Source: Tubiluchus corallicola (Eukaryota > Animalia > Priapulida). From it: DNA of 64,000 nt. Under the pieces are notes generated by a model. The model did not search any database, was not told the origin of the DNA, and saw nothing but the letters and a program-made list of their open reading frames with translations. The stretch lies in NCBI GenBank assembly GCA_030141605.1, contig JAQGDQ010000503.1, positions 70,703 through 134,702 on the forward strand, given 5' to 3'. Positions 26,276 through 60,351 of this stretch are shown here, piece by piece. The translations under genes were made by a program, and so were the position numbers. The stretch's first letter is position 1; the number at the start of each line of letters is the position of its first letter.

Positions 26276-26278
26276 CAG

Positions 26279-29695: not shown

Positions 29696-30046
29696 TAAAA
29701 TATGAGGTAAGAAGATCGATATTGTTATGGTTAACATCATTCAGTTTCTTCCAAAAACAGAGAAAGAGTTTATCAACAATACATTTTCACATAGTGATTA
29801 ACAGCATTGTGACACACATGCAATAAGCAGATTGTTCATTGTGTAAATAAGCCCTATACGTTTTAGTAGCTACATTGTTGAAGATTAGTAGCCATTGTTA
29901 TTATATGGAACAAATTTACTTATTTTTTGTTGATTAGCTTTTTTATACAAGTCAGCATAATTCTGGTAGAGTTCTACCTGGTTTTTCTGTCTGACAGTAA
30001 TGCTCATTCAGGGAAATCATTTGATTGTTGTTATCCCTGCTGACAC

Positions 30047-32145
30047 GTGTGCGGCGTACTGTTGACTGATTAAATTTGTTCGTTTGCGGCATACTGTTGA
30101 CTGATTAAAGTTGTTCGAGTGTAGCCTACTGTGGACTGATTGAAGTTGTTTGTGTGCGGCCCACTGTTGCCTGATTGAAGTTGTTCGTGTGCGGCCTACT
30201 GTGGACTGATTGAAGTTGTTCGTGTGCGGCCTACTGTTGACTGATTAAATTTGTTCGTTTGCGGCCTGCTGTTGACTGATTAAAGTTGTTCGAGTGTAGC
30301 CTACTGTGGACTGATTGAAGTTGTTTGTGTGCGGCCCACTGTTGCCTGATTGAAGTTGTTCGTGTGCGGCCTGCTGTGGACTGATTGAAGTTGTTTGTGT
30401 GCGGCCCACTGTTGACTGATTAAAGTTGTTCGAGTGTAGCCTACTGTGGACTGATTGAAGTTGTTTGTGTGCGGCCCACTGTTGCCTGATTGAAGTTGTT
30501 CGTGTGCGGCCTACTGTGGACTGATTGAAGTTGTTCGTGTGCGGCCTACTGTGGACTGATTGAAGTTGTTCGTGTGCGGCCTGCTGTGGACTGATTGAAG
30601 TTGTTTGTGTGCGGCTTACTGTTGTGATTGAAGTTGTTCATGTGCGGCCTACTGTGGACTGATTGAAGTTGTTTGTGTGCGGCCCACTGTTGCCTGATTG
30701 AAGTTGTTCGTGTGCGGCTTACTGTGGACTGATTAAAGTTGTTTGTGTGCGGCTTACTGTTGTGATTGAAGTTGTTCATGTGCGGCCTACTGTGGACTGA
30801 TTGAAGTTGTTTGTGTGCGGCCCACTGTTGCCTGATTGAAGTTGTTCGTGTGCGGCCTACTGTGGACTGATTGAAGTTGTTTGTGTGCGGCTTACTGTTG
30901 TGATTGAAGTTGTTCATGTGCGGCCTACTGTGGACTGATTGAAGTTGTTTGTGTGTGGCTTACTGTTGTGATTGAAGTTGTTCATGTGCGGCCTACTGTG
31001 GACTGATTGAAGTTGTTTGTGTGCGGCCCACTGTTGCCTGATTGAAGTTGTTCGTGTGCGGCTTACTGTGGACTGATTGAAGTTGTTTGTGTGCGGCTTA
31101 CTGTTGTGATTGAAGTTGTTCATGTGCGGCCTACTGTGGACTGATTGAAGTTGTTTGTGTGCGGCCCACTGTTGCCTGATTGAAGTTGTTCGTTGCGGCT
31201 TACTGTGGACTGATTAAGTTGTTTGTGTGCGGCTTACTGTTGTGATTGAAGTTGTTCATGTGCGGCCTACTGTGGACTGATTGAAGTTGTTTGTGTGCGG
31301 CCCACTCGATTGAAGTTGTTCGTGTGCGGCCTACTGTGGACTGATTGAAGTTGTTTGTGTGCGGCTTACTGTTGTGATTGAAGTTGTTCATGTGCGGCCT
31401 ACTGTGGACTGATTGGTTGTTTGTGTGCGGCCCACTGTTGCCTGATTGAAGTTGTTCGTGTGCGGCTTACTGTGGACTGATTGAAGTTGTTTGTGTGCGG
31501 CTTACTGTTGTGATTGAAGTTGTTCATGTGCGGCCTACTGTGGACTGATTGAAGTTGTTTGTGTGCGGCTTACTGTTGCCTGATTGAAGTTGTTCGTGTG
31601 CGGCTTACTGTGGACTGATTGAAGTTGTTTGTGTGCGGCTTACTGTTGTGATTGAAGTTGTTCGTGTGCGGCCTACTGTGGACTGATTGAAGTTGTTTGT
31701 GTGCGGCACTGTTGTGATTGAAGTTGTTCATGTGCGCCTACTGTGGACTGATTAGCCTACTGTGGACTGATTGAAGTTGTTTGTGTGTAGCCTACTGTTG
31801 ACTGATTAAATTTGTTCGTTTGCGGCATACTGTTGACTGATTAAAGTTGTTCGAGTGTAGCCTACTGTGGACTGATTGAAGTTGTTTGTGTGCGGTGGCT
31901 TATTGAAGTTGTTCATGTGCAGCCTACTGTGGACTGATTGAAGTTGTTTGTGTGTGGCTTACTGTTGTGATTGAAGTTGTTCATGTGCGGCCTACTGTGG
32001 ACTGATTGAAGTTGTTTGTGTGTGGCTTACTGTTGTGATTGAAGTTGTTCATGTGCGGCCTAACTGATTGAAGTTGTTCGTGTGCGGCCTACTGTGGACT
32101 GATTGAAGTTGTTTGTGTGTAGCCTACTGTTGACCTATTGAAGTT
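30047..32145. repeat. 35-bp satellite array A, ~60 copies
   Basis: Unit actgtggactgattgaagttgtttgtgtgcggcct with variants. Confidence 0.97.
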
Positions 32146-32149
32146 GCTA

Positions 32150-37000: not shown

Positions 37001-37420
37001 CTGATTGAAGTTGTTCATGTGCAGCCTACTGTTGACTGATTGAAGTTGTTCATGTGCGGCCTACTGTTGGCTGATGGAAGTTGTTCATGTGCGGCTTACT
37101 GTTGGCTGATTGAAGTTGTTCATGTGCGGCCTACTGTTGGCTGATTGAAGTTGTTCATGTGCGGCCTACTGTTGACTGATTGAAGTTGTTCATGTGCGGC
37201 CTACTGTTGACTGATTGAAGTTCTTTGTGTGCGGCCTACTGTTGACTGATTGAAGTTGTTCATGTGCGGCCTACTGTTGGCTGATTGAAGTTGTTCATGT
37301 GCGGCCTACTGTTGGCTGATTGAAGTTGTTCATGTGCGGCCTACTGTTGACTGATTGAAGTTGTTCATATGCGGCCTACTGTTGGCTGATTGAAGTTGTT
37401 CATGTGCAGCCTACTGTTGA
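34015..37420. repeat. 35-bp satellite array B, ~97 copies, same family as array A
   Basis: Unit actgttgactgattgaagttgttcatgtgcagcct. Confidence 0.97.
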
Positions 37421-37854
37421 CAGTTGGAATAACAACTGTTAATACAGCCAATCACGAGAGTTCCTTTCCTAATGTGTTCACTGCAGTCATTCTCAAAACA
37501 ACTAAGCGTGAATTATATTTGTGATACGCACATTTGAATTGCAAAATAACTGCAGTCATCTGAGTTCCATAAAATACAAATGCTGCCAACTACAGGCATC
37601 AGTGAAAGTTATTTACCTCTGACATTTCTGGCAGCATCTATATTAACAAATCGCAACTTGTATTAAATCTCATCAAAATTTAAAATAATTCAGTGCAGCT
37701 GGGTCTATTCAAAATAGGAATGTAAGAGAAATACAATGTTTAGCTCATAAAAGACAAATCAGTATAAGTCAAGAGTTAACTAGTTTGGCATGATTACAAC
37801 AGTAGCTTTTATTGAACTGAACATTTTGCACAAATTAAAGTAATGCAATATTAC

Positions 37855-39127
37855 ACACCTGTGTATTTTCCTGGTGCTTGATATGAAGAATCATAATCGC
37901 ATCCAAAAACCTTCCTGTTGAGCTCATTCACTGTCTGCTTCAATTCTCTCTTTTTCTCAATGCACCTGTCTGAGTTTAGAGCTGGTAGTTTGGTGGATCT
38001 TGCAGACATTTCACACGACGTTTTTGTTGAGCCCATTCTGCCATCATACGCTGACTGTCGACAAGGGAACGCACATGGTGTCCTTGCCTTGTTCTCCAGA
38101 AAAGACTTCGATTATTCTGTCTAGAAGGCAGGTCATTTCCTCCACTCCTTGTGTCGCACGACGACAGTGCCGAGCTAGCTCGTGTCTCGTCAATTGTCTT
38201 CTGACGTTAGTCCAGCAGTCCAGCGGCCATCTCCGTCAATCCAGCACCTTCTGCACACGTGGCAACAGATATGAGCACTTGTCCTAGTTCATTACCCACA
38301 TTCGTACTGTGGCCAGCCAACTTCTTCACGACCTTCTTCGTGGAATCCATCTTCAGTATTTTGCCAAAAGTCGATGTAACCTTAGCCTTCACCTCAACTA
38401 GCCTCTGAAGAGCGTCGAGAGCATATACACTCAAAAGCCATTTTGGAGTTGGTACGGATGGCATTTGGGGAATAGCCACAATCCTCACTGGTGTTATCAT
38501 GGCTGAAGCAAATGGCTCGCATGCTGTCAGGTATTGTGCTGTTTTCACTAAGCATGCTTCAGTGTGAGATGCCAAGAGTTTATTGTATAACTGCGCTGAT
38601 GTATTCCCCTTGCTTCTCTCTCTCAACAATATCAGAAGACGCTTGCTACATGCATACCTGTATGTTAGTAGTGCAGGAAACTGCGAACGCTGGCCTACAT
38701 CGATTTGCTGCAGTATTCCTGGGCACCATGCTGCAACTTTGATATGGCATACTCTACATTCCAGATAGTCAGTAGCAAGAAGAAAGGTGCCATCCACATC
38801 GACTACTTGGCAAACTGTCTTTTAATATCCACAAAGAGCCATTTGTCCTACGCAGTCAGGTTTGACACACTGCAGTCTCACCTTCCAGAAACGAAGTGGC
38901 ATCCAAAGAAATAATGGTCTTGCAAAAAACAGAGCCGTGGATGCTGGTGGCTGATTATGAATCATTAGAGGTTGTGGTGGATGAACCCACATCTGGATGT
39001 TCGGCTTCAACTGCCGTTTACCACCAGGTTCAATGATGGAAACAGCTTTAGAGATCCAGGCCTGTTCCCTCTTTGGTATGGCTTCTTTCGTTTGTATGTC
39101 CTTGGCATGGAGGACTGAATAGAACAT
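37855..39127 (-). mobile_element. Internally deleted DUF6729-type (Dada-like) DDE transposase
   Basis: FFARPLFLWMP, CVKPDC, YLECRVC, SQFPALLTYRYACS, LKMDSTKKVVKKL, TNVGNELGQVL, ELARHCRR, APGKYTG. Motif order recalled from this family; one stop and several deletions. Confidence 0.6.
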
Positions 39128-39160
39128 CAGGAATATAGAGAAAGCAATACCTAAAATGAC

Positions 39161-39545
39161 AGTGGGGTAAGTTGATCACCTGATCAAAATACCCCACTAT
39201 GGCAAGATCATTTTACCCCATCCCATGTCACTTCACAAAAACTTCAACACACAAAAATCCAATCGCCAGAAAAGAATTTAAATTGTCACAATTAAAGCAT
39301 AAATATAACCGGTTGCTATATGCAAATGCAAATAACAAGCTATAGTAATATTAACACATACCTGATTCGCTGATTTTATGACCTATTTCTCTCCCTGTTC
39401 TACAGAACGCTTCTGCACAAAAATGGCGGATAGGCTATCAGTGGAGTCATTGCCTAATGATTCATGGAACATCTGAAAGACCTTATGGCACCACTAGTTT
39501 AGGATGATCAACCTGCCCCACTGTTCAACTTACCCCACTCTCCCC
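39161..39545. mobile_element. MITE-like element with AGTGGGGTAAGTTGA inverted ends
   Basis: agtggggtaagttga at 39161 vs tcaacttaccccact at ~39525; right end CTCCCC|TA. Confidence 0.6.
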
Positions 39546-41565: not shown

Positions 41566-44500
41566 TGCTGCACACTAAATGCTGTAAAATAAACTAATTT
41601 AATTACATTCTAATTTATTGTAGTAATTTACCTCATCACCCTTGGTGCCACCTGATAATGTTCATCTTTGTTGAATTAAAATTACAAAATAGTAGCAAAT
41701 TAAACTCACATTGGTTTGTGAACCTGTGCCTCCATTACATCCCAGTATGGTGGGCGTACCCTGGCTGGGGGAGCCAAACCTTGGGCTCTGGCTGTCCCAC
41801 AAGCCTGCTCGTGCCGTTTGTCTGTGCCGTAGTGGAACGGGCATGCTGCGGTGGTCCGATGCCGATTGTATTGCATATTCATGTTGTCAAGACCACCGCA
41901 ATGAGCAAAGTAGAAGCATCTGAAATGCAAAAGTAAAATTTAGGCTTCATTTCACATTTCATTTTCTTCAAACTATTTCAGATTTCACCAGCATCCTAGA
42001 TTTGGCTTTATGAATTCATAAACTTGAATTTATGTCGAATTCAAGAATATTTTTCCTTTTATGTAAGTTTATAGCCATTTTATTTTACAATATTTAGGCA
42101 CTTCCTAGCAAACCGAATGACATTTCAATTCCACCCCTATAGCACTGCACGTCTGCTAAATTGAGGCGGAAATTTACTTCCCCATATTCCCCAAGGTTGT
42201 ATTTCGTGTACAGTCTCTTTCGTGTGGATTTTCACTGTCTAGGAAGAAGTTTTATGCTCAACTCAACTGCCGGGCTGGGGCTGTCTGCCTCTTATATACG
42301 TGCACAGCGTGACCGTGGTACCACTCCTTAGCTGGCTTCATCGAGCGAGCATCTTATTAACATAATTATTTAACATAATCTCCTGCTCTTAGTCTATAAT
42401 TTAACAGGTTCTCTTTACTATCACCTTTGACCTTTATGTTCTTTAGTTTTAGTGGAATGTGAATACGGTTGGACCCGACTTGCTTGTAAAAAAGAATTTA
42501 AAATAATTAGCTAAGTATAGAGTAAATCATGGTTGGCCACATCACTGGAACACTCACCTATCCAGGATGTGACCAGACCTTCTGATTTACATCTTTATTA
42601 TTAACTCTTGAACGGCATTTGCACTTGTAAATTGTATTTGCCTTTGTATAAAATAGAAGCACTTGTGAGGCAATAGTGAGAGGTTCACCTGGAGGAACAA
42701 TGTGATGTTTAAGACATAAGACACCAGAACCTTATTTCACACATGTAACCTTTTACAAGCAAGTAATGGAGAATTAGACGAAACACTCCTGCTATAGAAT
42801 GAGCAAAAGTTGCGAAATCTGCCACCTAAAAGTGAGTACTCCCAATAGCGCGACACTTTTGTAAAAAGAGAATGTCAACTATTGTTGGCAGGCCTCAACA
42901 AGAACAGAACCCCAGTCGTAGGTGTAAAAGAGTTTTGAACACTAAATTTGGACTATAATCCTCAATCACAGTTAGTAAGGCAAAAATAGACCTCCACAAC
43001 CTGTACTCTTAAACCACTACAACAATTTCAATCGGGGCACGTTATTGTTGGCTTGATAAGGCTTATCCTAGGCCGAATCTTACAAAAATAATTCCTCAAC
43101 TCGATCATCTATGATTTAATGTGTTAATTTAAAAGTCGAAGAGCCAGTATTTGTTGAGAAGAAAGCTTTTATTGTGAAGAATCTGGCGTGTATTTTAAGG
43201 CCTGTTTGGGCTTTACGGTGACAAACAAAGTCATCATTTTGCTCAGCATAACTGTTTATTGTTTGTGTACCATTTTCACGTCACTTGCCCCTTAGTCATT
43301 TACTTCATCATATCTGACACTGTGACGCCATTACCCAAAATATTACATTTTATCTGAAACAAGATATATAAATTCCTTTAATAAACTAACTCATTTCTAT
43401 CAAAGGGTCGATTACGATTACGTGAAATTAATGAGAAACTTGCAGTAAATAAAATAAATAACTAAATATTACATACATTGTTGGCATTAAATCGTGAGTT
43501 CACAGAAACACGTCATCACATGAACACATTGAAACTTAAATGACCGGAAATTGACTAGGATGCAAATATTGAGGCCAGGTGTCGCCACTTGTAACTGTAA
43601 AACGCTATATTGAATTTAACAAAACAAAAATCCTTGACAAGGCCTCTGTAAAAGAAGCTTTGGAATGGTACATTGTGCGACTTACCGCTAACAGAAATCT
43701 CTGATATAAATGTAACTCCCCCCCCCCAACACCTAAATTATCAGTAATGAAGGTAGATGTGCTTGATTTGGCATCAAATAAGATGAATACAGCAAGTTCA
43801 ACTCTGAGATAAGTAGCGTAGATATGTTTTCGATACTAGAATGAAGCAAAGCGTGCAACGTATTTCTAATAGTTCCTGGTTAAACGCTGCCTTCTAGTCA
43901 AATCTTTCTGTAATGTGTTGTTAGGCAACATGAATATGTATATATATCATTTTTATTCGCACTCGTGGTACAATCACATCAAATCAACAAATAGTTCAAC
44001 ATGCAAAATAACATTAATTAATAAGATTAGTAAGCAGTGTGAATATATACAATTAACTGACACAAGTAAAATAATTGTTTGTCTATTTGCTGTTTTGCAT
44101 TGCTAGCTGTATATTGGTGTTTTTGGGATGGCAAAACTATTAAGACTCAAGTTAAGAAACGTTTATTAAACATTTTAAAAGTAAATATCATAACAGATAG
44201 TCATGCCAAGCCCCCTGATCTGATCCGCTCTGATCTGGTCTCTGGTCTGATCTCCTGAGGTGCGGGCATGACAAAGATTTTCTAGGCTATCAAGCTCCGG
44301 AAGCTTCGGGCGCATCGACCGCCTGCGCTAAGTTCGATTCTGAATCACTTGATCACGTGATACCACACCTTAACTGGTCTTCATGCCAACATTTCATCAG
44401 AATTATTGTTTAGCATAATTTAACACTTTTAACACAATTTAACAGCTCTTCTTTACTCTACAGTAAGATATGTTAGCATGGCGTACAACTCATTCCTGTC

Positions 44501-46290
44501 AAAAAATCAAAACAATTACATTCCAGAGCCCATGTAACTTCTTTAATGAAATTTACAGTATGTATTTGTTCATCGCCAGCATTACCTCTTACATCTAATG
44601 TACAAGAAAAACTTTAGAAAGAAAATTTTCATTTCTGTAAAAAGTTTTGTACTCATTACAAATAGATAACAAATTATAACCCATTATAGAAGAGGTATGA
44701 AATTCGTGCAAAGAAATGGCTATATGGTTTTCACTATATAAGCCACTGTGGTAAAATTTACCAAATCGTTTTTATAGTTGTTTAAGCAGGGGAACAATAT
44801 CACATATAAAAAGAAGACAGTATTTGTGTGATCTAAATGGCAAATTCTAAAGTTTTTCAGACTAGATGTCACTAGTCACTCACTTCTTTCTTTTTCTCCT
44901 CTCTACTCTAGTATCACTGTAGTCTAGTATCACTGTAGTCTAGTATCACTGTAGTCTAGTATCACTCTAAGTGTGTAGTGATACTAGGCTCAATTGTGTG
45001 ACACGTAGAGCATTTATATAGGTAGTGTTAACTAATTAAGTGGTCAACAGAAGTCCAATAGGTAATGTTAAAAATAACAAAAACTTTATTAAAACTTTTA
45101 CATTAAAAAGTAAAAAGGTAAAATCATGCCAAACGCCTCGACTAGTATGTCTGCTGAAATTGTGCCATTGGTCACGACAACGGTTGACGGTGGCTCCATC
45201 AAAACAAAAAAGCATAGGGAAAAAAACGTTAAAAAACTTGTTAACTGAGAGCAGTTCCGAAGATGAAACTGATTATTGAATTAGGATAACTCGAACACTT
45301 GGTTATTATGCTAGAATAACTCCAAAAGCTCCTAACTAGTACATCAACGTGGAACCGATAAACGTTGATATCCAGTGAACACTAAGTGAAAATTAAGAGA
45401 AATGTAGTTAACATATACAATAAGATTATTCAGATTAATATAATGCACACAAAATCTGTATTCATTGTTCTTTTCACATTTTATGCACTCACTTCAAGGC
45501 ATTAAGATCACACTGCAAAGAAAGAGTGTTTAATGCTGGCAACTGTTGTACTGAGTCACAATCATTTTTTATTTATCTAGTTACTATCTGGCATCTCAAT
45601 ATTATTTTGGCATAGATTCTTATCTATCTTAACCTAAGTTATTTTGATTATTTGCATCTCATGATGTCTAGTGACCTTTTTATGTCTAGATTTATTTGTT
45701 CTTCATTTCTAATTAAATCTACAATTTACTGATTAAAATAAAATACACTTGGTACTTTACACAGAACTCTGCTAGTTAGTGCATTAACTATTATGTCTTG
45801 CCAATGGATGGTTTGCCAATTGTAGCCGATTTGCATAAATGTGTTGCTAAGCAACTTACTTTTTTATCCCTCTGAAGCAGACATGTACACATTGCAGAAA
45901 CCGTATACATAGCTGAACAGTCATAATCTATACAGGATAGCTCCCTCAACCTTTATTAATGACTGTGTATCTTGCATTCACCGTTGTTGCACTCAGTCAG
46001 AATGAGTCATGCTGCGAGGTTTTTGGTAAGCTATTTCGCCTAGCAAAAAATGACACTATGAAGAAAAAGTCAAAAAAGAAGAAAAAGCAACATTGGCTGA
46101 TAGGTTTCATTCTTTCTGCGATACAGTGTTAAAGGATCATTATTTTCTTGTTAGCCCCTATTTTTAGAAGAATCTTTCTAACTTGGAGTTTTTCTTACCT
46201 TGACGCCCTGGTTATTACTGAAGTCTGTTATACCAGCAAAGCTTCTTTCGTGGTAACCACGGATTATCGCGTTCATGTGGAGTTTCTGTG

Positions 46291-46504
46291 GAAATGGATC
46301 TCTGTTATAGTTGGCTTCACGAACAATCCTTTAAAAAGATAAAGCCCTTCCTCCTCAGCTTCAATGTTTGGGAGATATACTTCAGCATCAGTGGAGTTCT
46401 GGGGAAGGTTTAGTGGTGCTGATGTGCATTTATCTGGGGCGGAGGCAAGAGGGGTGGTCTCTTCCTAATTGTTCGTGAAGCCAACTATAACAGAGATCCA
46501 TTTC
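46291..46504. repeat. Perfect 37-bp inverted repeat with 140-bp loop
   Basis: gaaatggatctctgttatagttggcttcacgaacaat (46291-46327) is the exact reverse complement of 46468-46504. Confidence 0.95.
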
Positions 46505-46546
46505 TGCAAGAGTTCAACATAAGTGATAGAGTTATTTTAGTCTTCA

Positions 46547-48140
46547 TTTTTATTTTATTTTTTTATTTTTATTTTTTTATTTTTTTTATAAGTAAGACAA
46601 CATATTATCAAAGGCACCTGGTCTTTTGAGCGCCATTTGGGTCAGTGTCCTAATGATAGTTCTTCCATATCTATTGGGCCACTCCTCATTTTGTTCGCTT
46701 AAACCATGCCCCACCCATTTGGGTTGGTGACAAATACATTTTGTTTCAAACAGTCTGCATCTTGCACAAAGATTTCTACAGTATGATCTCCAATTTCTCA
46801 CATTGTAGTGGAAATTGTGCTTTTTGGACTTCACTAAGACATAAAAAACCCACATAGCCTGAAAATAGGAGTTAGTCCCTGGATAGAGTAATGATCCGAT
46901 TCCTTTTAATGCAAACGTCCCCAAGGGGTCAGTTTCATCAAACCAGATTTCTTTGAATCTAACTTCTTCAATCGGATCAATGATCCATGTGCTTGATGGT
47001 ATACATCGGAGGCTGGAGTAAGTTTCAGACAACCTAGAGTGCAATTCCAGCATAACCTCAGTATAGTTGTGAGGTTCTTTTCCTGCATAATAGAAATTAA
47101 TGATGTCATTTATTCCTTGGGCGGGTGTGATGTTTACAGTGTCTGCACAGGCTAGCCTATCACAGTAAAAGATACATTCAGTGTTTTCTAGAGAACTTGA
47201 CCATGGTTTCATTATATAGTATGTGGCATATTGGAATCCTAGTTGAGTTAGTCTAGATATTGTTTTATCTGATAGATTTTCTGCAATCAGTTTAAGTAGG
47301 ACCTTTTTAGGTTTATACTCAAAACAGAGGTCTATTGCAACATCGACAAGATCACAGTAATATGTCGGATTCATGACTTCAGCATCAAAAGTCAACACTG
47401 AGATTTCACCTCGTCTGAACTGATGTTTTAATGAATTGATTGTCTTTGGGTTAAATAGATCACCGTCAGTAAGGTTGTTCCTTAGGATCTGTTCCCAGTA
47501 TTCGACACAATGACGACAAAATGTGTTCAAAGGCTTAGAATTGAAAGTGTCCTCTAAAAGGGACATATTGGTTTCTACTAAACTATTATAAACTACATAC
47601 AATGGGTTCATGAGATGCAAAAACCCTGATAAAATTGATCCGTCTCCTTCAGCTAGGCACACAAGACCCCCTGGTTCGAAGTGAGTACTTCCTAATACTT
47701 CTAGAAATTTGTTTATACTAGTGCTGGTTATTCCAAACGGCCTAGCAATGTGGTGTAAATAGTGGCCTTTCCTTCTGGCTTTTGTGCTTGGTTCCATCCT
47801 AGGTAGTCTCACCGTACCCATGGGCGGTCTGATTCTAGATGTTGTTGCTGTTTGCCTGGTCTTGATGTTGATGTTTTTGATATCTTCAAACTTGTGGGCA
47901 ACTATGATCCTAGAAGATAGAAACTCAGATAGTGGAGGCAAGTTGATTGTTTCGTTCACTTGGGTGAGTTTAATCCTACCCCTACTAAGGTGTTTGATTG
48001 CTCTTCTCAAATCTGAATAAGTGATATCAGCAGGGATGTAGAGAATTGGTGCTAACTTATTTTCTAAGTATATCCCTACGCAAGAAGCGTACAATACACA
48101 CAACCAATACAACGAATTATTGAAATTCCGGCAATTCTTA
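46547..48140 (-). other. Endogenous viral element: C-terminal part (cap methyltransferase + CTD) of a Mononegavirales/Jingchuvirales L protein, ORF 46586-48112, with A-rich tail
   Basis: RPFGITSTSINK (K), CLAEGDGS (SAM-binding GxG), VYNSL, TFDAE (D), LLKL (K), KPWSSSLENTE (E): K-D-K-E 2'-O-MTase layout of negative-strand RNA virus L proteins; intronless; stop followed by TAAAAAAAATAAAAAAAT... Confidence 0.85.
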
Positions 48141-48254
48141 AACTAAGTCCAACTATATTAGTGTCCAATAAAAGGGCAACAAAACGTTTTATAAAAGTGA
48201 ACTGCAAACAATTGACACTAAAAAATTGTATCACCTAACATCAATCTATATAAC

Positions 48255-50940
48255 TTACTTGCAGAGAGATACCGCTTTGCTTAAAACTTGAACGAGCTCG
48301 CCAACTCTTCCCAAAGCTGGGTGTTCCCTATAGAGGCTGCTAATGTCCTCCCAACCGAAACCTACATTTGCCTTGATGACGGCGAAAAAATGCTTGCACA
48401 GCATTCTCGAGTGTTGGAATGAAGGGCAAGAGCAAGAACAGCACTCATCACCATTACCAAATTTTACGGTATAAATAGTGGAGGCATCTTGTTCGCTGGA
48501 GACATTGAACGTCTTATGTCCAATTACTGTAACTAAGGCTACCTAAGAATATGAAACAGTAAGTACTTAACCTGAAAATACAAGGCATTATAGCAGCAAA
48601 TGGTGCCTATTGAAGATTCACTTATATGGAACTACGTTTATTGTATCGCTAACCTGTACAGAAAGCACATTACATCAACAACATCATGTATTGCAATATA
48701 TTGCCGAACACTAAGAAATGTGATGTAATACTTATAAACCGAAATCCATTATTGCTGGTAATTTCTGATTCAAGTATACCATACATGTACCTGTGACGGC
48801 TTCACTTTCTCCATTTTGTCCCACATATCCTCAAAAATTGTTCTTGGCCTGTTCTGCAGCCAGGATGGGACTTCCACAGACCAACTTCTGTACAAGTGAG
48901 AGCTCTTCACATTCATCTGCTCATAGCTAGAAAATGTATGAGATCTGAATTAAAAATACAGTTTGCAAATATATTGGACTGCTCTCCGCTGTCAATGGAG
49001 GCAGAACGGATGGCACCGCGGCCTACACCGTGCGGCATGTCTCAACTAACATGTCAATGCCAAACCAAAACCAAAATGAATAATAAAATCAAAATGACAA
49101 TTTATTACAAAAAAATATTCCAAATAGCTTACCGAACAGAGTAGAATAGAGCAAGCCTGAAGTGTGAACAGAGCTGAGGTGAGACGACCACTGACCAGGA
49201 TCTACAGCAGACCTACCCTTTTTATAAGCTCAGGTGTGCACGTGACTAGTGGCTCCTACTAACACAAAGTCAGAATAAGAGTCGATGTGCTAGTTAAAGC
49301 CACGTTCACACGCACACCTGAGAAGTCTGCTGTATTCCCCTGCCAGTATTACACTATCTCATCACAGCCCTGCAGTACAATATTTTAGATATTTTCTTTA
49401 CCAATAAATAACATACAACTTTAACCGTTGTAACTTCAGAGAACTACACAAACAAGAATACTTGAGAAACTAGCAAAAGCTTCTCCAAGCCGAATAACAA
49501 CCTTATTACAAAATAAACAAATTTAATATCCTGATTTGGTCACCCTGTCTCTCATAAAGGTGCTGCTAATCTGAAAATCAGGAAATTATGTTAGAAAATA
49601 ATTTTCCACTTTAATAATCTCAACTGTTTGTTTACAAATGTAACTGTAACTTTCTGTTATTGTTCAATGAAAAATAATAACAGATATGGTAGATGAACTT
49701 TTGAAAAATAGTACCGCTGGTATTTTGCTGGCAGCAAGTGTGTTATTAGAACATCCAGCAGTTCACTGCCGCCTCTTGCTGAGAAATCCATATTTCAGAT
49801 CCTCGTTCATCCTCTCTACACCGTTATTCGTGTTCACAGCCAAGAGGAGTTCTTCTGGCCTAACAGAGCACTGCCGCCTCTTGCTGAGAAATCCATATTT
49901 CAGATCCTCGTTCATTCGCTCTACACCGTTATTGGTGTTCACAGCCAAGAGGAGTTCTTCTGGCCTATAAGCATTGCTCCATTTCTGAAACGTATTATCT
50001 TAACATAGTGGACATGTTAGCTATACTGAACGGTACCGTACAAACAACTTTACGAAAAAAAAGCCTACTTGGTTAGTAAATTGTGACATTTTACATAAAC
50101 TGACACAATGCTTATCAGATGGTATTTTGTCAAGTTTTAGAGTTTGCACATTAACATGAACAATTCATTAATTGCTACCCAATTAAAAGTTTAAAGTTGT
50201 TATCCAATTATGGTTTAACCTGTAATATAAAAAATTAATAGAACGTGTAAAACTAATTTATAAATTTAGCTGATTTAAAAATATCTAATAGGTTAATAAC
50301 ACTCACGTAAATTTCAGTTATACTCACCTTGATTTCTGGCAGCCAGGTTTTACCAAACCAGTGCTGAAGTTTGGAGCTCTCTTGGTATATCTTGCAGGAC
50401 TGGAGAGCTCTCAGGGAAGCTTGCAGCTTTGCATCAGAGCTAGCTCTGGCAACTTGTCTTAAGCGGCACTTTATTTCCTCAACATGTTCTGGATTAGCTG
50501 CCACCCCATTTGATCCCTTACTGAGCCATCTTACCCAGGTTTGCTCACGGTGGAAATCACATAAAAATACTTTAATGCCTAAAATGCAAGGAACAAAGTT
50601 ACGCATAGTAAAAGAAGCTGATAATCATGACCACATTAGCATGATTACGTCTTCACCCAACAAAATAATACTCGTTTTTCAGAAATCTGTACCAATTACA
50701 TTAACCCCTCCCAAAAACATTTCACTAGTAATGACAGGTTGAGTATTCACTTTTGCACATTGGCACATTTAAGGGCATGTTCTCACAGGTAAATGTGATC
50801 TACATGTAGATATCCTATTGTTTACCTAGAAATGTTTCTTCCAGAGCTAAAGTTTCTTCTGATGCAAAATCCACCATTGCAAACTGATGCAAAGGAGTCC
50901 AGCTTTTTACAACAGCCAAAGCTTTTGCGATGGTTGTTCT
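48255..50940 (-). mobile_element. Intron-containing MULE (Mutator-like) transposase with SWIM finger, decayed
   Basis: AMVDFASEE (~50860), VFLCDFHREQTWVRW (CxxH), NTNNGVERMNEDLK (catalytic E), VPSWLQNRP, SWIM CSCSCPSFQHSRMLCKHFFAV (~48380-48440). Confidence 0.85.
49763..49968. repeat. ~105-bp tandem duplication inside the MULE catalytic exon
   Basis: AVNTNNGVERMNEDLKYGFLSKRRQ encoded twice in frame. Confidence 0.9.
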
Positions 50941-51469
50941 TGTTGCAAATGAAACAGTTGAAAGAGCTTATCGTTTTTGAACTGAAATGAATAATGGCAC
51001 TAATCAGAGTGTAACTAGCAACACCTTTATACTCGCAACTGCATTTTTCAGCAAATTCTTTATAATTATTGGACTCATCATCATTGTTCTAAATATGCTT
51101 GTTGTCACTGCTATTCTCAAATATAAAAAGTTGCAAACATCGTCGAATTGACTGGTGCTTAATTTGTCAGTGGGTGATGGATTGTTTGGCAGCATGGCAT
51201 TGATGCTTGTAGACGGTTCTTGCACATGAATGTTATTTCTGCAAATAAGTGCTTATTTATTGTTATGCAAAAGTTTTAGTTATGCAAACTAAATTAACGA
51301 ATGCATCCATAATCGAAAGTAAGTAATGAATCACTAATGCATTTTAGTTTACTGAATAGCGCTCCAAACTGAGTTTTGCGAAACTCTGTTTCTACTTGTC
51401 AGAAAAATTGTCAACTAGTTTACAGCTACAATTTCTTACAATTTTTATTCGTAGCAGCATTCTACACCA

Positions 51470-52024
51470 TTAAAATTGTTGTTGAAAGTGACGATAATGT
51501 AATTTGCCAAAGATATGCCGAGATGTCACGTGTCTCTTCGAAAAACATAATATATGGTGATCGTCATCATCACTATCATCATCTCTCTCGGTCAAGTCAG
51601 TCTCGTTGGTAGCCAGCTCCGAATCACAACTCACATACTTCTCGAACGTTGTTTCCGATAAGTTTAGTTCACAGTGGCGATGAAGTCCCAAATGTTTCTT
51701 TCTTGTACAGACATCTCTGCGAGTAAGATATTCCCTCCGCTCGGCAGGCCTTTACACACCGCATTTGCATGTACCAGATAGTCAGAGCTTTCTCCGGTGG
51801 CTCTATATCTGATGTTCGCAATTCCTTCCATTTGTTTGTGACTTGATTTTTTCGTAAGCTTCCTTCAGTTTCTCCTTAGACGCGAAAATGCTGGATACCG
51901 TCTGTTTATTTAGGCCGTATTCTTCATAAATTTTGCTTTGTTTTGCACCAGTCTTGATTTTTTCGATAATCTCGATTTTTGTGACGAGCTCAATAGCTTT
52001 CCACTTCTGCTTGATACTGCTCAT
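51470..52024 (-). mobile_element. Internally deleted Tigger/pogo (CENP-B-like) transposase
   Basis: HTH_psq-like KAIELVTKIEIIEKIKTG...YGLNKQTVSSI, then EKALTIWY, joined to C-terminal FEKYVSCDSELAT plus an acidic tract; DDE core missing. Confidence 0.8.
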
Positions 52025-52880: not shown

Positions 52881-53883
52881 CTTGTGAAAAATTGGCAATG
52901 AACATATTTGTTCAAATCTGTTAAATTAAAACTATAAATAGCTGCCATACATAATTTGATGTTGAGTTTTAACAGCCTGTAAAACAGACGTTTTATACAG
53001 CAAATGTGCTGGCGGAAAGTATTATGGCAATACACACCTACATATGAACAAACGCACTCTCTCCCTATAACTTGCTAAATTTGGCTTAATTGTACACATG
53101 GATCTGCACTTATAAATTATTGTTGGTCTTCAAGACTGACAAATGTGTGTGTGCCCTAGACAAGCATACGTAACACCACCATACACCAAGTGTGCCACAC
53201 TACAGTACTCTATATTTACAAGTTTCAGATTTTCCATCACTGAATTTCCTTAAGGCAACTAAGAAGTCGTATTCATCCGGAATGAAGCGCCAATTTTCGC
53301 GCCAGATGAAGAACTTCCTACTGATATAGGAAAACAATTAAACTCCTTTTTGGTATCACCAATTTCCTGGCAAGCTGACTGTACAACAGAAAGTTTCCTA
53401 AAAAATTTTATTTCCAGCATGCCAGTGATTTTCTTACATCCTGCTATGTCTTCTTCGTTAGGTGTTCTCTTCAGTGGTTTACACTCTTTGTGCATCTCAG
53501 GTATGTACAATAAGTGGCCCACTGTTTCTTTATACTCGTCGTTCATTGTTATTACGTTCACTAAATTGTGTATATCCAGTGCTGTCAGCCCTTTATTGTT
53601 TGGCTTTTCAAGGCAGACTCCATGCTAACATTGTGTAACGTCACTTCTTGTACCTGTGTGTGAATGCGCAGCTGCGTATAGTGGAATGTCACCTTCTTTA
53701 TTACAAATGTCAAGACCACTTCCGTACAGCAGAGCTGTGTTGTCAAACTTACCATTTTTATTTATAAAATAATGTAGGCTTAGCTCAGACCTCTCTATTG
53801 CAGCAATCGACTTATTGCTAGAGCCAGGAACTCCTAACAGATGTTGGAGTAAAACACGTAGTGTTTCTGTGCTTCCAACTTTA

Positions 53884-54218
53884 ACTACAGCTATAAGAGC
53901 TGTCTGTTCATCCTTATTGCTAGAGCTGGGACTACAGCTATAAGAGCTGTCTGTTCGTCCTTTTATGCTAGAGCTGGGACTACAGCTATAAGAGCTGTCT
54001 GTTCATCCTTTTATGCTAGAGCTCTGACTACAGCTATAAGAGCTGTTTGTTCGTCCTTTTATGCTAGAGCTGGGACTACAGCTATAAGAGCTGTCTGTTC
54101 GTCCTTTTATGCTAGAGCTGGGACTACAGCTATAAGAGCTCTCTGTTCATCCTTTTATGCTAGAGCTCTGACTACAGCTATAAGAGCTCTCTGTTCACCC
54201 TTATTGCTAGAGCTGGGA
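53884..54218. repeat. 48-bp minisatellite, ~7 copies, derived from part of an ankyrin repeat
   Basis: actacagctataagagc at 53884, 53931, 53979, 54027, 54075, 54123, 54171. Confidence 0.93.
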
Positions 54219-55079
54219 ACTCCTGACAAATGTTGCAGTAAAATGCATAGTGTTTCTGTGCTTCCACCTTTAATTAGCACCATGACAAAGTAATAATTCC
54301 AGCGTTTCATGATGCCCGTGTGCAGCTGCAGTCATTAGAGCTGTCACATCAAATGCATCACAACCATTACAATCAGTATTGCGGTCAAGAGCCAAGAGAC
54401 ATTCAACAGTAACATTGCCATGGGAAAAGTCTGTTTGTTATCCTTGTTGTTACATGATGTTAGAATGCAACTTCTCTGCCATAACAAGTTTATGGCTTGT
54501 TCATCTCTGTTACCAGCAGCAATCAAAGGTGCAGACCAGCCGTCTTTGGATTTGGCATTACAAATAGCACCAAAAGCCAGAAGAATCAATATGGTTGCAT
54601 AATTGCTAGCACGTGTAGCATACATAAGAGGCGTCCATGTATCTTTATTACTGACATTACAGTCAGCATTACTTCTAAGCAGCAATTTAAGTCAGCAACA
54701 CCAGCGACTTAACTCCTTCCCTACATTCGAGTCTCCCTTCTTAGCTGCCCAGATAAGAGCAGTCTGTCCAAGCCTGTCACTGACATTACAATCAGCTCCA
54801 TTAGCTAGTAAGAGCTGAACTACATTCAAATGTCCTTTATAAGCTGCTAGCATCAGAGCAGTTTGTCCATACTTGTCACAGACATTACAATCAGCTTCAC
54901 TAGCTACTAAGAACTGAACTACATTCACATGTCCTTTAAAAGTTGCTTTCATGACAGGAGTCCATCCATTGTTGTCACTTACATTACAATCAGCTCCACT
55001 AGCTAATAAGCTCTATAAGCTACTAGCATCAGAACAGTTTGTCCATGCTTCTCACAGACATTACAATCACCTCCACTAG

Positions 55080-56460
55080 CTAGTAAGAGCTGAACTACAT
55101 TCAAATGTCCTTTATAAGCTGCTAGCATCAGAGCAGTTTGTCCATACTTGTTACAGACATTACAATCATACAATCAGCTCCACCAGCTAGTAAGAGATGA
55201 ACTACATTCAAATGTCCTTTATAAGCTGCTAGCATCAGAGCAGTCTGTCCATACTTGTCACAGACATTACAATCATACAATCTGCTCCACTAGCTACTAA
55301 GAGCTGAACTACATTCACATGTCCTTTATAAGCTGCTAGCATCAGAGCAGTTTGTCCATACTTGTCGCAGACATTACAATCATACAATCTGCTCCACTAG
55401 CTACTAAGAGCTGAACTACATTCACGTGTCCTTTATAAGCTGCTTTCATAAGAGTCGTCCATCCATCATAATCAGCTCTACTAGCTAGTAAGAGCTGAAC
55501 TACATCCACATGTCCATTGTAAGCTGCTTTCATGGCAGGTGTCCATCCATTGTTGTCACTTATGTTACAATCAGCTTCACTAGCTACTAAGAGCTGAACT
55601 ACATTCAAATGTCCTTTATAAACTGCTAGCATCAGAGGAGTTTTTCCATACTTGTCACAGACATTACAATCATACAATCACCTCCACTAGCTAGTAAGAG
55701 CTGAACTACATTCACATGTCCCTTATAAGCTGCTAGCATCAGAGCAGTTTGTCCATACTTGTCACAGACATTACAATCATACAATCAGCTCCACTAGCTA
55801 GTAAGAGCTGAACTACATTCACATGTCCTTTATAAGCTGCTAGCATCAGAGCAGTTTGTCCGTACTTGTCACAGACATTACAATCATACAATCAGCTCCA
55901 CTAGCTAGTAAGAGCTGAACTACATTCAAATGTCCTTTATAAGCTGCTAGCATCAGAGCAGTTTGTCCATACTTGTCACAGACATTACAATCATACAATC
56001 ACCTCCACTAGCTAGTAAGAGCTGAACTACATTCACATGTCCTTTATAAGCTGCTAGCATCAGAGCAGTTTGTCCGTACTTGTCACAGACATTACAATCA
56101 TACAATCACCTCCACTAGCTAGTAAGAGCTGAACTACATTCACATGTCCTTTATAAGCTGCTAGCATCAGAGCAGTTTGTCCGTACTTGTCACAGACATT
56201 ACAATCATACAATCAGCTCCACTAGCTAGTAAGAGCTGAACTACATTCAAATGTCCTTTATAAGCTGCTAGCATCAGAGCAGTTTGTCCATACTTGTCAC
56301 AGACATTACAATCATACAATCACCTCCACTAGCTAGTAAGAGCTGAACTACATTCACATGTCCCTTATAAGCTGCTAGCATCAGAGCAGTTTGTCCATAC
56401 TTGTCACAGACATTACAATCATACAATCAGCTCCACTAGCTAGTAAGATCTGAACTACAT
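55080..56460. repeat. 107-bp tandem repeat = 99-bp ankyrin unit + 8-bp duplication
   Basis: cttgtcacag at 55651, 55758, 55865, 55972; each unit contains tacaatcatacaatc. Confidence 0.92.
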
Positions 56461-57591
56461 TCAAGTGTCATTTATTTGTTACAGTAAAGTACGTATAACT
56501 CAAAATTGTTACATTAAAGTAAAGTATTTGTTACTATCTTACGCTGATATTAAATGTTTTAAGATTACACATAGACAAGTTAATCTCTGTACAAATATCG
56601 CTATAGCTTCTAGGTGGAAACCATGACATTTTTAATACATATAGGACAGTAGGATCAGAGCGATATATTATGTATGCATTTGTAATCACCCTTAATTACG
56701 ACTGCTAAATATGTTTTGATTCACTAAGAAAACTCAACTGTTTTACAAAAACATGCAATAGTGTTTGAAACAAAGCATAATTGAAGCAAAGTAAATCTGA
56801 GTTTTTTTAAGCAAAGTAAAGCAACATGGGCTGGCTTTGCAATATATCGGTAAACTGACTTTCGAAGGTGCTGAAAATTGACTCAAGACTGTGTAGAAAA
56901 AGCGTTCTAACAAAACTAACTCGTAATATCCATCATTGCACATGCATTAAAAATAGTAATACACAATCGTGCAGCACGGTTTCTTTTTTTCGACAGCAAA
57001 TTCTCCAAGACCCCTACTGTTAACACAGCAAAACACGACAGTTCCTTTCATAAGGTGTTTATTGCAGTCTTTATTTTCTAAAGGAGAAAAACAAAAGAAT
57101 ACATAAAATTTTCAGTAATGCAATTTGAACAAAACTACAGAAATTTGAACAAAAAAAAATTACACAGAAAATTGCTTTCTAATTAATAAACTTAGATTTA
57201 CAAAAATCACTTACTTCGTTTGGCTAGAGAGCGCACACTGTTTATGGTTGAAGCATGACATTAAATTTCTCACATAAAAATTGCATTATCCACATTACAA
57301 GTCTCTGCTATAACCAGTCAACTCTTTTGGCTCCCTCATGCGGGAAAAAAACAAATTATATGGGTAATTTGCCCATAACACCTACCAAGGGTCATTAGAA
57401 GTTTTTTTATACCCTGTGTTCAACTGTTGGGTTATTTTTCTGTTTTGAGATCACAATTCAGAATCATTTCACTGTGTACAAGTATGCGCTGCACTGACTT
57501 GGTATTCGAGTGTCATTAAACCAACTGAGGATAGCCGGTATTGCATGAAAGAACAACAACAAAAATATTTAAATGTCCTTTTTTAGTTTAA

Positions 57592-60351
57592 CCTTTATCT
57601 TACCGCGTATACTTCTAGCTGTCCGTTTTATTCATTTTTACATGGATGTGTTCTATTAACATACCTATTGTATGTAACAAGTTTCAGGCAAATCCCTTCA
57701 CGGGTTACGGAGATATGGAATGTTCCATTTATGGAACATTGGGAAGATCAGCACGTATTACTTACAAAAGGACACACTGAAGATTGATGCATGTTGCATT
57801 GCATTTTCGATGTTTATTTACAGCAATACATGACAACACAATGTATGTATACAACACATGATATTTCTTCATGTGCACGACTGAACATGCACATGCCTAT
57901 CACACTGCATGTGCATATACACCTCGCCCTAGCGGCGGTGGTACACGATAAAGCAGTCCTTCTGCCTCTCACTGTGGAGCCGCACTCCGCACTTGTTGCA
58001 CATTAGTTTCGTGTTTGTTTTACATACTTTACATCGTCCCTGAGTCGTTGTCACAGCCTGGTGATTTCGACCATCAAACCTCGCGTCGACTGGAAGGCCC
58101 ATAGGCCCGTGACCTACGCCTCGAACAGCAAATGGTTCAGTGTCCGCTTTTAGTAGGCACAAAGCCACATTCCGCCGAAAGTCCAAATGAGTCATCACTG
58201 TCACGATGAAGGACACAGTAAAGCCGCCACGCTGCAACAATGGATACGTTCACTGCATTTAGGAAGAGTGGCCAGTACCACTTTTTTCCTCTGATCATTG
58301 GCCTGTACGATCCTAGAAGGCGATCAAATAGGTCCACTCTGCCCATACCCTGATTGTATGCATTGACAAGGTGAGGCTGGGCAACGTCCTTCTCTCCCCC
58401 TTTTGTTCTCCTTTTCACCTGGTGAATCGGAAGATGGGTTTGATAGTTGCTAGCTACCGCTACAACTGAATTGTCGGTCCACATTGTTACGTAGACATTG
58501 CCATCAAATGTGTAATCAAATGTGCCCCTATCCTTCTTGGCAAGTTCTTTCTTGGAAATCATAGATTTCGAAGCACCACGTGTTCTGTTTTCTTGGACAG
58601 TTCCTGTTGCTTTCAAGTTTGCCGCATACAAATCACTCAACAGATCATACGAAGTAAAAAAATTATCAAAGAACAGTTCGTGGCGGTGAACGTCCGAGTT
58701 TTCCGAAATAACCTTCACCATATTCTGTACAACTCGAGTTCCTAACGGGATGTCACGATCTGCACCCTCTTCCTTCCCTTGGTACAGTCGCATTGCATAT
58801 GGGTAGCCGTCAGCACCGCAGAAACACCATATTTTGTACCCAAATCTAATGGGCTTTCGTTTTATGTACATCTTGCCCCCGTGTCGCCCGAAATAAGGCA
58901 CCATGCTTTCGTCTACGCTCAAAAGATTGTGGAACACACCAAACCGAACAATGTTGGCATTGAGAACGTCATATAACGGCATTACTTTTGCGAACTTATT
59001 TCCACGAGCAAGGTTCTGATTATCGGCGAAGTGAATATACCTTTTTATTTCCTGAAACCTGTTTCTGCTCATTGCGTTGGAAATGACTGGAACTCCCAAA
59101 TCAGGCTGTGTTGACCAGTAGTGGTGTTCTTCAGGAAGACTGTGGTAACCCGACACAACTAGACATCCGATGAACCGTCATACTTCTGACTTTGTGACTG
59201 TAAAGCTGGGCTTGTTTTTATCCCGACGTGCGTAGAGTAGTGTCTGCTCAACAACATCATTCATCAAATTGTCGGAAAAGATTTCTCTCCACAACTCGTA
59301 TGGAGTCTCGCCTTCCAATGCATTCAGTTCATGAGACAACGTGATATCAGCAGTGGATAATATCTTGTCGAAGTCAGTCTTCTTTCTCCAATTTGGAAGT
59401 TGTCTTCGTTCTCCACGACGGGCGGATTTACTTGGTGGTTCTTCATTCTCGACTACATCGTCATCCGCTTCCTCCTCCACTTCCATCTCTCCCGCCGGCT
59501 CGAAGTCAACATCTTCTTGGCTGTCCTCCAAATCACTGTCTTGATCAGCTTCGTCTCCTGCGGCGGGAGGAAGCAGGACCACATTGACTGGGTGTTCACT
59601 CTGTTCCAGTGTGTCGCGTGCCTCCGCTAGAGTACGAACACGTGAGGACTTTCTCCCGTAGAAGAACGTGGTATCGATAACCTAGAAAAATTTGGTCGAG
59701 CTCTATTTAGGTCAACTTACAACACACTATGCTAATAACGTAACACGCTAAATTAGATAAATTACAATTTACATTGACTACAATAGCTAGAACAATAGCA
59801 AAAATACGTGTTTTGTAACGCTGGTATCCACAAAATGTTGTGTTTCACTCAACTTGTTAGGAAAGTATCAAGAACAATGGCAGTGAGCGCTACGCTACTT
59901 GGCAATAAGCTGCACACTGTAAGCATGACTGTGGGGAGCCACGCTCCACTGTACACTGCAACCTAAAACGTGCTGATCCTACCAATGTTCCATAAATGGA
60001 ACATCAAAATATTACAGTATTTTTTTAGTACTTAGCAACCGAATGTACGATCTGTTATATTGCCAATCAATACCTTGGAGTGTAAGCTTTTAGGCAGTGC
60101 AGCCAATTTCCACTGAAGTTCACTCTGCACTTTTTCAGGCCAATTTGAAATTGCGCGGTCAAATTTCGTATTTTTAGGCCTTAGTTGGGCAACCATGAAA
60201 AATTTGAATCTCAATATAAAAAGTTCAGTTTCCCAACAAAGTAAGAAACATGTCAGGACATCACGATAGAGGTAGAATTGCCTCGATAAATTAAGCATGT
60301 GAGCTGCGATGGCGCCATAAAAAGTATGTTCCATTTATGGTAAGATAAAGG
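57592..60351 (-). mobile_element. Full-length piggyBac transposon (PGBD2/3-like transposase, two frameshifts)
   Basis: TTAA TSDs (57588-57591, 60352-60355); perfect 13-bp TIR CCTTTATCTTACC; ORFs 59178-59582, 58137-59156, 57929-58240 with SVDESM, KPIRFGYK, FFDNFFTS, YNQGMGRVDLFD and a C-terminal Cys/His finger; internal palindromes ATGTTCCATTTATGGAACAT. Confidence 0.96.

What the first reader, a model, noticed from the sequence alone, without database searches (positions are those of the whole stretch)
46547..48140. Intact-ORF endogenous negative-strand RNA virus L fragment with retroposition hallmarks
Seen: 508 uninterrupted codons with the K-D-K-E tetrad and LAEGDGS SAM motif, 5'-truncated (no RdRp), with the stop running directly into an ~40-nt A-rich tail. 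Most neighbouring elements are disrupted. Knowledge: Mononegavirales and Jingchuvirales polyadenylate at U-tract gene ends, and LINE RT can retropose such mRNAs (as for bornaviral EBLs). Inference: recent or selectively retained capture of the 3' end of an L mRNA from a probably undescribed virus. It could act as heritable antiviral memory (antisense piRNAs) or as a co-opted cap methyltransferase. No clear TSD was found.
Basis: partly seen in the sequence, partly recalled or inferred. Interest (0 to 1): 0.85.

Follow-up and report, generated by a model that had tools for sequence, protein, structure and literature searches.

The report
Viral polymerase tail fossil in invertebrate
An invertebrate chromosome carries the open, cap-methylating end of a polymerase gene from a distant negative-strand RNA virus, followed by an A-rich tail and lodged in a broken transposon; it is likely a young DNA copy of a viral messenger RNA that was then duplicated and rearranged, a known kind of viral fossil, and no host function is shown.

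Summary
An open minus-strand frame (46586-48142, 518 codons) runs into the only 40-nt A/T tract of the 64-kb window. All 14 hits among 1.84 billion proteins carry Mononegavirales L domains; the best is a nematode nyami-like virus at 30% identity. K145-D253-K284-E322 and an HxxR loop are intact; no RdRp lies in the window. The virus family is unresolved. New here: the element is not one clean insertion. Read contigs show it as DNA in two samples, with a second 5' junction at 48088, a 112-nt frameshifting deletion in some copies, a break at 47370 and a head-to-tail joint of a 2.7-kb unit. It interrupts a decayed MULE/SWIM transposase gene, has no TSD, and has an inverted repeat beside the tail. 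Versions differ at 11 sites (5 silent, P about 0.15), so youth explains the open frame. Best reading: a young mRNA-derived viral fossil, duplicated with its flanks; piRNA memory and enzyme co-option are untested. New member of a known kind; interest 0.4.

The parts
46586..48088 (-). 3' piece of a viral L gene shared by all versions seen: linker, cap methyltransferase, C-terminal domain, stop (codons 19-518)
   Evidence: one 1479-nt contig 46610-48088 in X1
47156..47758 (-). Methyltransferase domain, residues about 129-329, with H131, R134, K145, SAM loop 163-169, D253, K284, E322; in-frame Met108 (47821) and Met116 (47797) lie upstream
46547..46587 (-). A-rich tail, 36 A in 41 nt, beginning inside the stop codon; likely a poly(A) tail from a U-tract gene end, broken up by single T
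   Evidence: bridged by one X4 contig 46475-46626
48089..48318 (.). 230-nt unassigned segment between the L piece and the broken SWIM exon; it adds 18 in-frame codons (48089-48142). Other versions carry different sequence beyond 48088
   Evidence: (loose ends at 48088 in X1, X2, X3)
47811..47922 (.). 112 nt missing in some versions (codons 74-111, frameshift; removes Met108, leaves Met116)
   Evidence: joint 47810 to 47923 in X2 and X4
48319..48542 (-). SWIM zinc-finger exon of a MULE-like transposase gene, broken at 48319; other genomic copies continue differently there
   Evidence: PF04434 E 1.1e-6; loose ends at 48319 in 4 of 4 runs; acceptor at 48543
48791..50967 (-). Upstream exons of the decayed MULE-like gene (48791-48926, 49714-49990 with a 105-nt tandem duplication, 50328-50582, 50818-50967)
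   Evidence: 48-74% identity to a Lingula MULE-domain protein
46275..46520 (.). Inverted repeat beside the tail (arms 46275-46327 and 46468-46520, 53 nt, 87%), likely a rearrangement scar at the 3' junction
46192..48864 (.). 2673-nt unit joined head to tail in sample X3; depth there is raised across most of it
   Evidence: joint 48864 to 46192 in one contig, depth 58.6, 75 letters on the shorter side

Best explanation
This is a chromosomal DNA copy of the 3' end of the L (polymerase) gene of a distant negative-strand RNA virus, likely made recently by a host reverse transcriptase from the polyadenylated viral mRNA, and likely kept open by youth rather than by use. Shown: L methyltransferase homology, intact catalytic residues, a tail at the stop, 5' truncation, presence as DNA in two samples, position inside a broken MULE/SWIM transposase gene, several rearranged versions. 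Inferred: the viral polymerase ended the mRNA at a U-tract overlapping the L stop codon; a non-LTR reverse transcriptase primed on the tail and stopped after about 1.5 kb or more; the cDNA was joined at a break in the transposon exon with loss of target DNA, filler sequence and an inverted duplication instead of a TSD; the insert was then duplicated with its flanks, and the versions are now decaying.
For: 14 of 14 hits among 1.84 billion representatives carry Mononegavirales Pfam domains, 9 with the RdRp; an L profile built without the query scores it at E 8e-44 (the members were picked as hits). Tetrad spacing is 108/31/38 against 111/33/38 in VSV (PMC6636387, passages). H131 and R134 lie 14 and 11 residues before K145, as H1659 and R1662 do before K1673 in hMPV (PMC4659945 section 6). 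196 residues follow the catalytic E, against 199-361 in the 9 hits that reach the C-terminus with an RdRp, which fits a natural L end. The tail is unique in the window. Both junctions are bridged in sample S1. Versions: second 5' junction in X1, X2, X3; 112-nt deletion in X2, X4; break at 47370 and tandem joint in X3. ORF contig depth 387.5 against 164.9 in the unique flank in X1; 14.6-20.4 against 4.4 in X2. Eleven differences, 5 silent against 3.0 expected, P 0.15; an ORF this long stays open with probability about 0.36-0.60 at 0.5% neutral divergence. Filler DNA and target deletions mark endonuclease-independent L1 insertions in humans (PMC1920257 abstract and section 11).
Against: No TSD and no empty allele were seen, so the insertion route is inferred. 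The two RT elements in the window do not end in poly(A) (read by eye), and no whole genome was held to look for an L1-type element. Divergence between versions dates the duplications, not the capture; the T-interrupted tail could mean the capture is older. No nonsense change among 11 differences, and the six private to the X3-type version are 4 silent of 6 (expected 1.9, P 0.076), which leans towards purifying selection or a second capture from a related viral variant. The deletion leaves Met116 and the whole methyltransferase in frame. Contig depth is not a copy number (tool warning). X1, X2 and X4 are one sample and may be the assembly's source. The Pfam score, 18.4 bits, is under the 25.2 cut-off.
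Confidence: 0.62

Rival explanations
1. The insert works as heritable antiviral memory: sitting inside a repeated transposon and amplified in tandem, it would be transcribed and cut into antisense piRNAs against the source virus.
For: It lies in a transposon-rich window inside a multi-copy MULE-like element; the unit appears amplified in X3. Antisense 5'U piRNA-like reads from a probable rhabdo-like EVE are reported in a dog whelk (PMC6085071, passages), and EVEs feed piRNA clusters in ticks (PMC6580184, passages). This role needs no open frame, so deletions do not count against it.
Against: The insert is in the same orientation as the host transposase gene, so read-through would give sense, not antisense, RNA. 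No small-RNA data were available, and the source virus is not known to circulate.
Confidence: 0.17
2. The piece is a co-opted cap 2'-O/N7 methyltransferase translated from Met108 or Met116 and kept by selection.
For: All catalytic and substrate-loop residues are intact; in-frame ATGs precede the domain; methyltransferase plus C-terminal domain is active on its own in hMPV (PMC4659945, abstract and section 6); a slight silent excess among differences; intact L capture with purifying selection is known in bats (PMC4865735, passages).
Against: Any 5'-truncated copy of a recent L mRNA of this length would look the same. Versions are rearranged, and the deepest X3 contig breaks at 47370, between D253 and K284. 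The silent excess is not significant (P 0.15). No promoter, transcript or ortholog was shown.
Confidence: 0.08
3. The cDNA was made by an LTR retrotransposon or as free viral DNA and entered by recombination or repair, not by a LINE priming on poly(A).
For: No TSD, filler DNA at the 5' side, rearranged target. LTR elements are the usual partners of EVEs in Aedes (PMC6580184, passages).
Against: The insert ends exactly at the stop and an A-rich tail, as expected for poly(A) priming. No LTR-element ORF was found in the 15 ORFs scanned.
Confidence: 0.1
4. The ORF is a cellular or giant-virus FtsJ-type methyltransferase retrocopy, not a piece of an L gene.
For: ESM Atlas features point to FtsJ-like clusters of Nucleocytoviricota (0.92-0.93, recognition below the reliable level; 0.76-0.79 for the C-terminal part). 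VIA-align ranks E. coli FtsJ first (Z 17.5, rmsd 3.0, 168 aligned) above Sudan virus MTase (Z 16.4, rmsd 3.1, 189 aligned).
Against: The fold is shared by the whole family. By sequence, 14 of 14 hits carry mononegaviral domains, the only Pfam hit at E up to 0.1 is PF14314, Foldseek's top 4 PDB and top 9 viral matches (8 named) are L proteins, and the HxxR and YNSL motifs align with L proteins.
Confidence: 0.03

Closest known systems
Endogenous bornavirus-like L elements, e.g. eEBLL-1 of Eptesicus bats (PMC4865735, passages read)
   Same: DNA copy of an L mRNA with an open frame, a termination-like signal and poly(A) after the stop, no viral start signal.
   Different: eEBLL-1 is 1,718 codons with the RdRp, has a 9-bp TSD, is over 11.8 million years old, transcribed and under purifying selection. 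This element holds only methyltransferase and C-terminal domain, has no TSD, exists in rearranged near-identical versions, and selection is not shown. The virus is not a bornavirus by its hits.
Non-retroviral EVEs (NIRVS) of ticks and mosquitoes (PMC6580184, passages read)
   Same: Mononegavirales/chuvirus-like fragments in transposon-rich DNA; duplication is common (46% of 276 NIRVS in Ae. aegypti have a copy at 98% identity or more).
   Different: The host here is likely not an arthropod (inferred); piRNA production is not tested; the neighbour is a MULE-like DNA transposon.
Soybean cyst nematode nyami-like virus L (AVK42865.1; PMC5839581, passages read)
   Same: Best sequence hit, E 2.5e-13, 30% over residues 118-357; shared LAEGxGSILSG stretch; a short similar motif 74 and 70 residues from the C-termini.
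   Different: Similarity is confined to the methyltransferase; the C-terminal motif is not significant (14 of 300 shuffles); the tree does not group the two with support.
Probable rhabdo-like EVE of the dog whelk (PMC6085071, passages read)
   Same: Negative-strand virus fragment integrated in a non-arthropod invertebrate.
   Different: That one is a nucleoprotein fragment with antisense 5'U small RNAs shown; here it is an L fragment with no RNA data.

Membership tests
Mononegavirales-type L cap methyltransferase (CR-VI) | K-D-K-E tetrad with L-type spacing | tested here: met
   K145, D253, K284, E322; spacing 108/31/38 against VSV 111/33/38
Mononegavirales-type L cap methyltransferase (CR-VI) | Glycine-rich SAM loop | tested here: met
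   LAEGDGS at 163-169; A164 and G166 invariant, G168 nearly
Mononegavirales-type L cap methyltransferase (CR-VI) | H and R of the loop 14 and 11 residues before the first lysine | tested here: met
   H131, R134; hMPV H1659, R1662, K1673
Mononegavirales-type L cap methyltransferase (CR-VI) | Pfam PF14314 above its curated cut-off | tested here: not met
   18.4 bits against 25.2, E 0.0014; several full-length L hits also fall under it
Mononegavirales-type L cap methyltransferase (CR-VI) | Rossmann-type FtsJ-family methyltransferase fold | tested here: met
   Model confident over about 141-333; matches L and FtsJ structures
Nyamiviridae (Mononegavirales) or Jingchuvirales | Supported placement in an L/RdRp tree | tested here: inconclusive
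   Methyltransferase-only tree of 15 rows: long branch 1.8, support 78/69 and 82/83 around it, no outgroup; RdRp absent
Nyamiviridae (Mononegavirales) or Jingchuvirales | Family-specific gene-end motif | not tested
   The motif stands in a figure of PMC5839581 that is not held; only the VSV signal was read
LINE-retroposed EVE of the EBL type | Poly(A) directly after a viral gene end | tested here: met
   TTAT then A8 overlapping the stop, 36 A in 41 nt; VSV gene end 3'-AUACUUUUUUU
LINE-retroposed EVE of the EBL type | Target-site duplication | tested here: not met
   No direct repeat of 7 nt or more between 46490-46560 and 48080-48350
LINE-retroposed EVE of the EBL type | 5' truncation | tested here: met
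   No upstream L domains in the window; another version may extend further
LINE-retroposed EVE of the EBL type | Integration in host DNA with supported junctions | tested here: met
   3' junction bridged by one X4 contig, 5' junction by an X4 contig (X1 and X2 contigs have 30 letters on the ORF side); one sample, possibly the assembly's source; ORF also in X3
LINE-retroposed EVE of the EBL type | A poly(A)-priming LINE in the host genome | not testable with these tools
   No whole genome held
Co-opted (exapted) EVE such as eEBLL-1 | Purifying selection among orthologous copies | tested here: inconclusive
   Only within-species versions: 5 silent of 11, P 0.15
Co-opted (exapted) EVE such as eEBLL-1 | Transcription | not testable with these tools
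   No RNA holder listed

The most novel reading that the evidence does not exclude
A non-arthropod invertebrate is capturing the mRNAs of a deep-branching negative-strand virus right now, and the one piece of L that works alone, methyltransferase plus C-terminal domain, is being amplified inside a MULE transposon and translated from an internal ATG as a host-encoded viral cap methyltransferase.
Probability: 0.08. Interest if true: 0.82.

Novelty: new member of a known kind. Interest (0 to 1): 0.4.

Why it matters
It records a negative-strand RNA virus lineage with no close relative in 1.84 billion protein representatives (30% identity at best, one domain), in a host group where such fossils are little described. 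Because versions differ within the species, it is a chance to watch capture, duplication and decay as they happen, and to test with small-RNA data whether viral memory by piRNA extends beyond arthropods. A host-used viral cap methyltransferase would be new, but nothing here shows use.

Tried and rejected
Word-index protein searches found nothing at longer or near lengths. No relative in viral contigs (23 pattern matches, none confirmed) or metagenome contigs (578, none confirmed); the alignment had no stretch conserved enough to search with. The single-sequence fold was unusable (pLDDT 37); the alignment model is confident only over the methyltransferase, so the N- and C-terminal parts have no tested fold. 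Linker and C-terminal domain show no significant similarity to any of 9 L proteins. 48089-48318 as a twin-priming inversion of upstream L: no L match on either strand, undecided at this divergence. X5 (third sample) and X6 (possibly RNA) do not hold the ORF, but X5 has no cover of the unique flank either, so this is no evidence of absence; no RNA holder listed. X3 as spliced RNA: rejected, its contigs run through the 48543-48790 intron and its repeat depths track X1. Assembly artefact or contaminating virus: rejected, DNA contigs bridge both junctions. No Rfam match in 44000-51500. No whole genome. Literature searches for a like case listed no methyltransferase-only L insert in a non-arthropod invertebrate; only listings were seen for most papers, and the library lacks most subscription journals. 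No supplements were read.

Full report
Observation. The minus strand holds an open frame at 46586-48142, 518 codons stop to stop; 30 shuffles of the window gave at most 173. The TAA stop supplies the first two A of a 41-nt tail with 36 A in runs of 8, 7, 5, 7, 4 and 5. This is the only such tract on either strand of the 64 kb.

Identity. An index-free search of 1.84 billion representatives gave 14 hits at E up to 0.001, all over residues about 88-371. All 14 carry Mononegavirales Pfam domains and 9 carry the RdRp. Of the 10 looked up, named ones are soybean cyst nematode nyami-like virus (best, E 2.5e-13, 30%), forcipomyiae 2 virus and a lispivirus. K145, D253 and K284 are invariant in 17 rows and E322 is in 16. 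Spacing matches VSV K1651-D1762-K1795-E1833 (PMC6636387, passages). H131 and R134 match hMPV H1659 and R1662 (PMC4659945, section 6). The model built on the alignment is confident only over about 141-333. Foldseek ranks L methyltransferases first in the PDB and the viral library. Against this reading: VIA-align puts FtsJ 1.1 Z above the Sudan virus domain, the Atlas points to giant-virus FtsJ-like clusters, and the Pfam score is under the cut-off. These reflect a shared fold and great distance; sequence decides for L. The family is unresolved: in a 15-row tree (two near-duplicates, P0016 and P0017, left out; no outgroup) the query is a long branch with weak support. The 196 residues after the catalytic E are just under the 199-361 of the 9 RdRp-bearing hits, which fits a natural end of L. 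No other L piece lies in the window.

Surroundings. The window is transposon-rich animal DNA: two RT elements, a piggyBac-type transposase, tandem arrays, ankyrin and LRR exons. Upstream and in the same orientation lies a decayed multi-exon gene, 48-74% identical to a Lingula MULE-domain protein, ending in a SWIM exon. Contigs of all 4 runs laid branch at 48319, so other copies of this repeat continue differently and the window's copy is broken there. Then come 230 unassigned nt, the L piece, the tail, and a 53-nt inverted repeat 26 nt beyond the tail. No TSD was found. That the host is a non-arthropod invertebrate is inferred from this hit and from unchecked earlier notes; transposons can move between hosts.

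Reads. Four of 6 listed runs hold the stretch, from two samples and two studies; none is on record as RNA. X1, X2 and X4 are one sample and may be the assembly's source. An X4 contig bridges the tail (46475-46626) and another the 5' junction; X1 and X2 contigs cover that junction with 30 letters on the ORF side. Several versions exist. A second sequence branches off at 48088 in X1, X2 (255 nt or more) and X3 (176 nt); whether it is more of L was left open. X2 and X4 show a 112-nt deletion (47811-47922, codons 74-111, frameshift). The deepest X3 contig covers 47370-48088 only and joins other letters at 47370, between D253 and K284. X3 also has a contig joining 48864 back to 46192. Depths are 387.5 over the ORF against 164.9 in the unique flank in X1, 14.6-20.4 against 4.4 in X2, and 9-86 across the unit against 1-3 beside it in X3. 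The tool warns that contig depth is no copy number, and amplification chimeras could explain the X3 joint; 49 pieces were not shown. Among the listed pieces no X3 contig bridges the window's own junctions.

Selection. Eleven substitutions were listed inside the ORF: 5 silent, 6 replacement, no nonsense. With transitions weighted, 3.0 silent are expected (P 0.15). The six private to the X3-type version are 4 silent (P 0.076; a subset picked after seeing the data). At 0.5% neutral divergence a 500-codon frame stays open with probability 0.36-0.60 under the two indel rates assumed. So the open frame needs no selection, but weak selection or two captures from related viral variants are not excluded. 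The deletion leaves Met116 and the whole domain in frame, so it does not by itself rule out a protein.

Mechanism. Established: these viruses polyadenylate by slippage on a U-tract (PMC6636387); bornaviral L mRNA was captured in bats with a termination signal, poly(A) and a TSD (PMC4865735, passages); endonuclease-independent L1 insertions carry filler DNA and target deletions (PMC1920257, abstract and section 11). Inferred: a host reverse transcriptase copied the L mRNA from its tail, stopped early, and the cDNA was joined at a break in the SWIM exon; the unit was then duplicated with its flanks and is decaying. The enzyme is unknown; the window's two RT elements do not end in poly(A) (by eye). 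I give this 0.62, piRNA memory 0.17, an LTR or free-DNA route 0.10, enzyme co-option 0.08 and a non-L origin 0.03. L origin alone is about 0.97.

Comparison and novelty. It works like an EBLL or an arthropod NIRVS; duplication of such inserts is common (PMC6580184, passages), and a probable rhabdo-like EVE with piRNA-like reads is known in a snail (PMC6085071, passages). It fails the TSD test for a classical LINE insertion and is not shown to be exapted. Other papers: PMC5839581 passages, PMC12282299 two passages, not informative on the hits, PMC10288550 abstract only. If true, it suggests repeated capture from one infection.

Verdict. Real, a new member of a known kind, from a distant undescribed virus. 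Interest 0.4.

Noticed in passing
window 48143-48185 (-): An AG with a branch-point-like CTAAT upstream sits exactly before codon 1 of the ORF, in the same phase as the donor at 48791; splicing would put the L piece in frame with the MULE exons. The pyrimidine tract is weak and the MULE gene is broken upstream.
   Followed up: partly
window 46192-48864: In run X3 this unit is joined head to tail and far deeper than its flanks; tandem array, circle or amplification artefact not told apart.
   Followed up: partly
window 46067: X1 and X2 contigs branch here and depth rises from 165 to about 270, suggesting the edge of a duplicated segment that includes the insert.
   Followed up: partly
window 30046-32146 and 34016-37421: Long arrays of a 35-nt tandem repeat (about 50, 12 and 97 copies) with strong strand skew.
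   Followed up: no
window 14105-15118 and 19992-20969 (-): Open frames of 337 and 325 codons made of 39-nt and 45-nt tandem repeats; the length follows from the repeat.
   Followed up: no
window 24455-26278 (-) and 11869-12513 (+): Non-LTR RT fragments (PF00078) whose 3' ends show short tandem repeats rather than poly(A).
   Followed up: partly
window 58137-59177 (-): piggyBac-like transposase frame, PF13843 E 2e-72.
   Followed up: no
window 38207-39175 (-): DUF6729 gene split by an in-frame stop at 38822-38824.
   Followed up: no
window 53625-56475 (-): Ankyrin-repeat sequence amplified as 107-nt and 214-nt tandem units that shift frame.
   Followed up: no
window 7832-8566 (-): Leucine-rich-repeat frame of 244 codons, PF13306 E 1.1e-6.
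   Followed up: no
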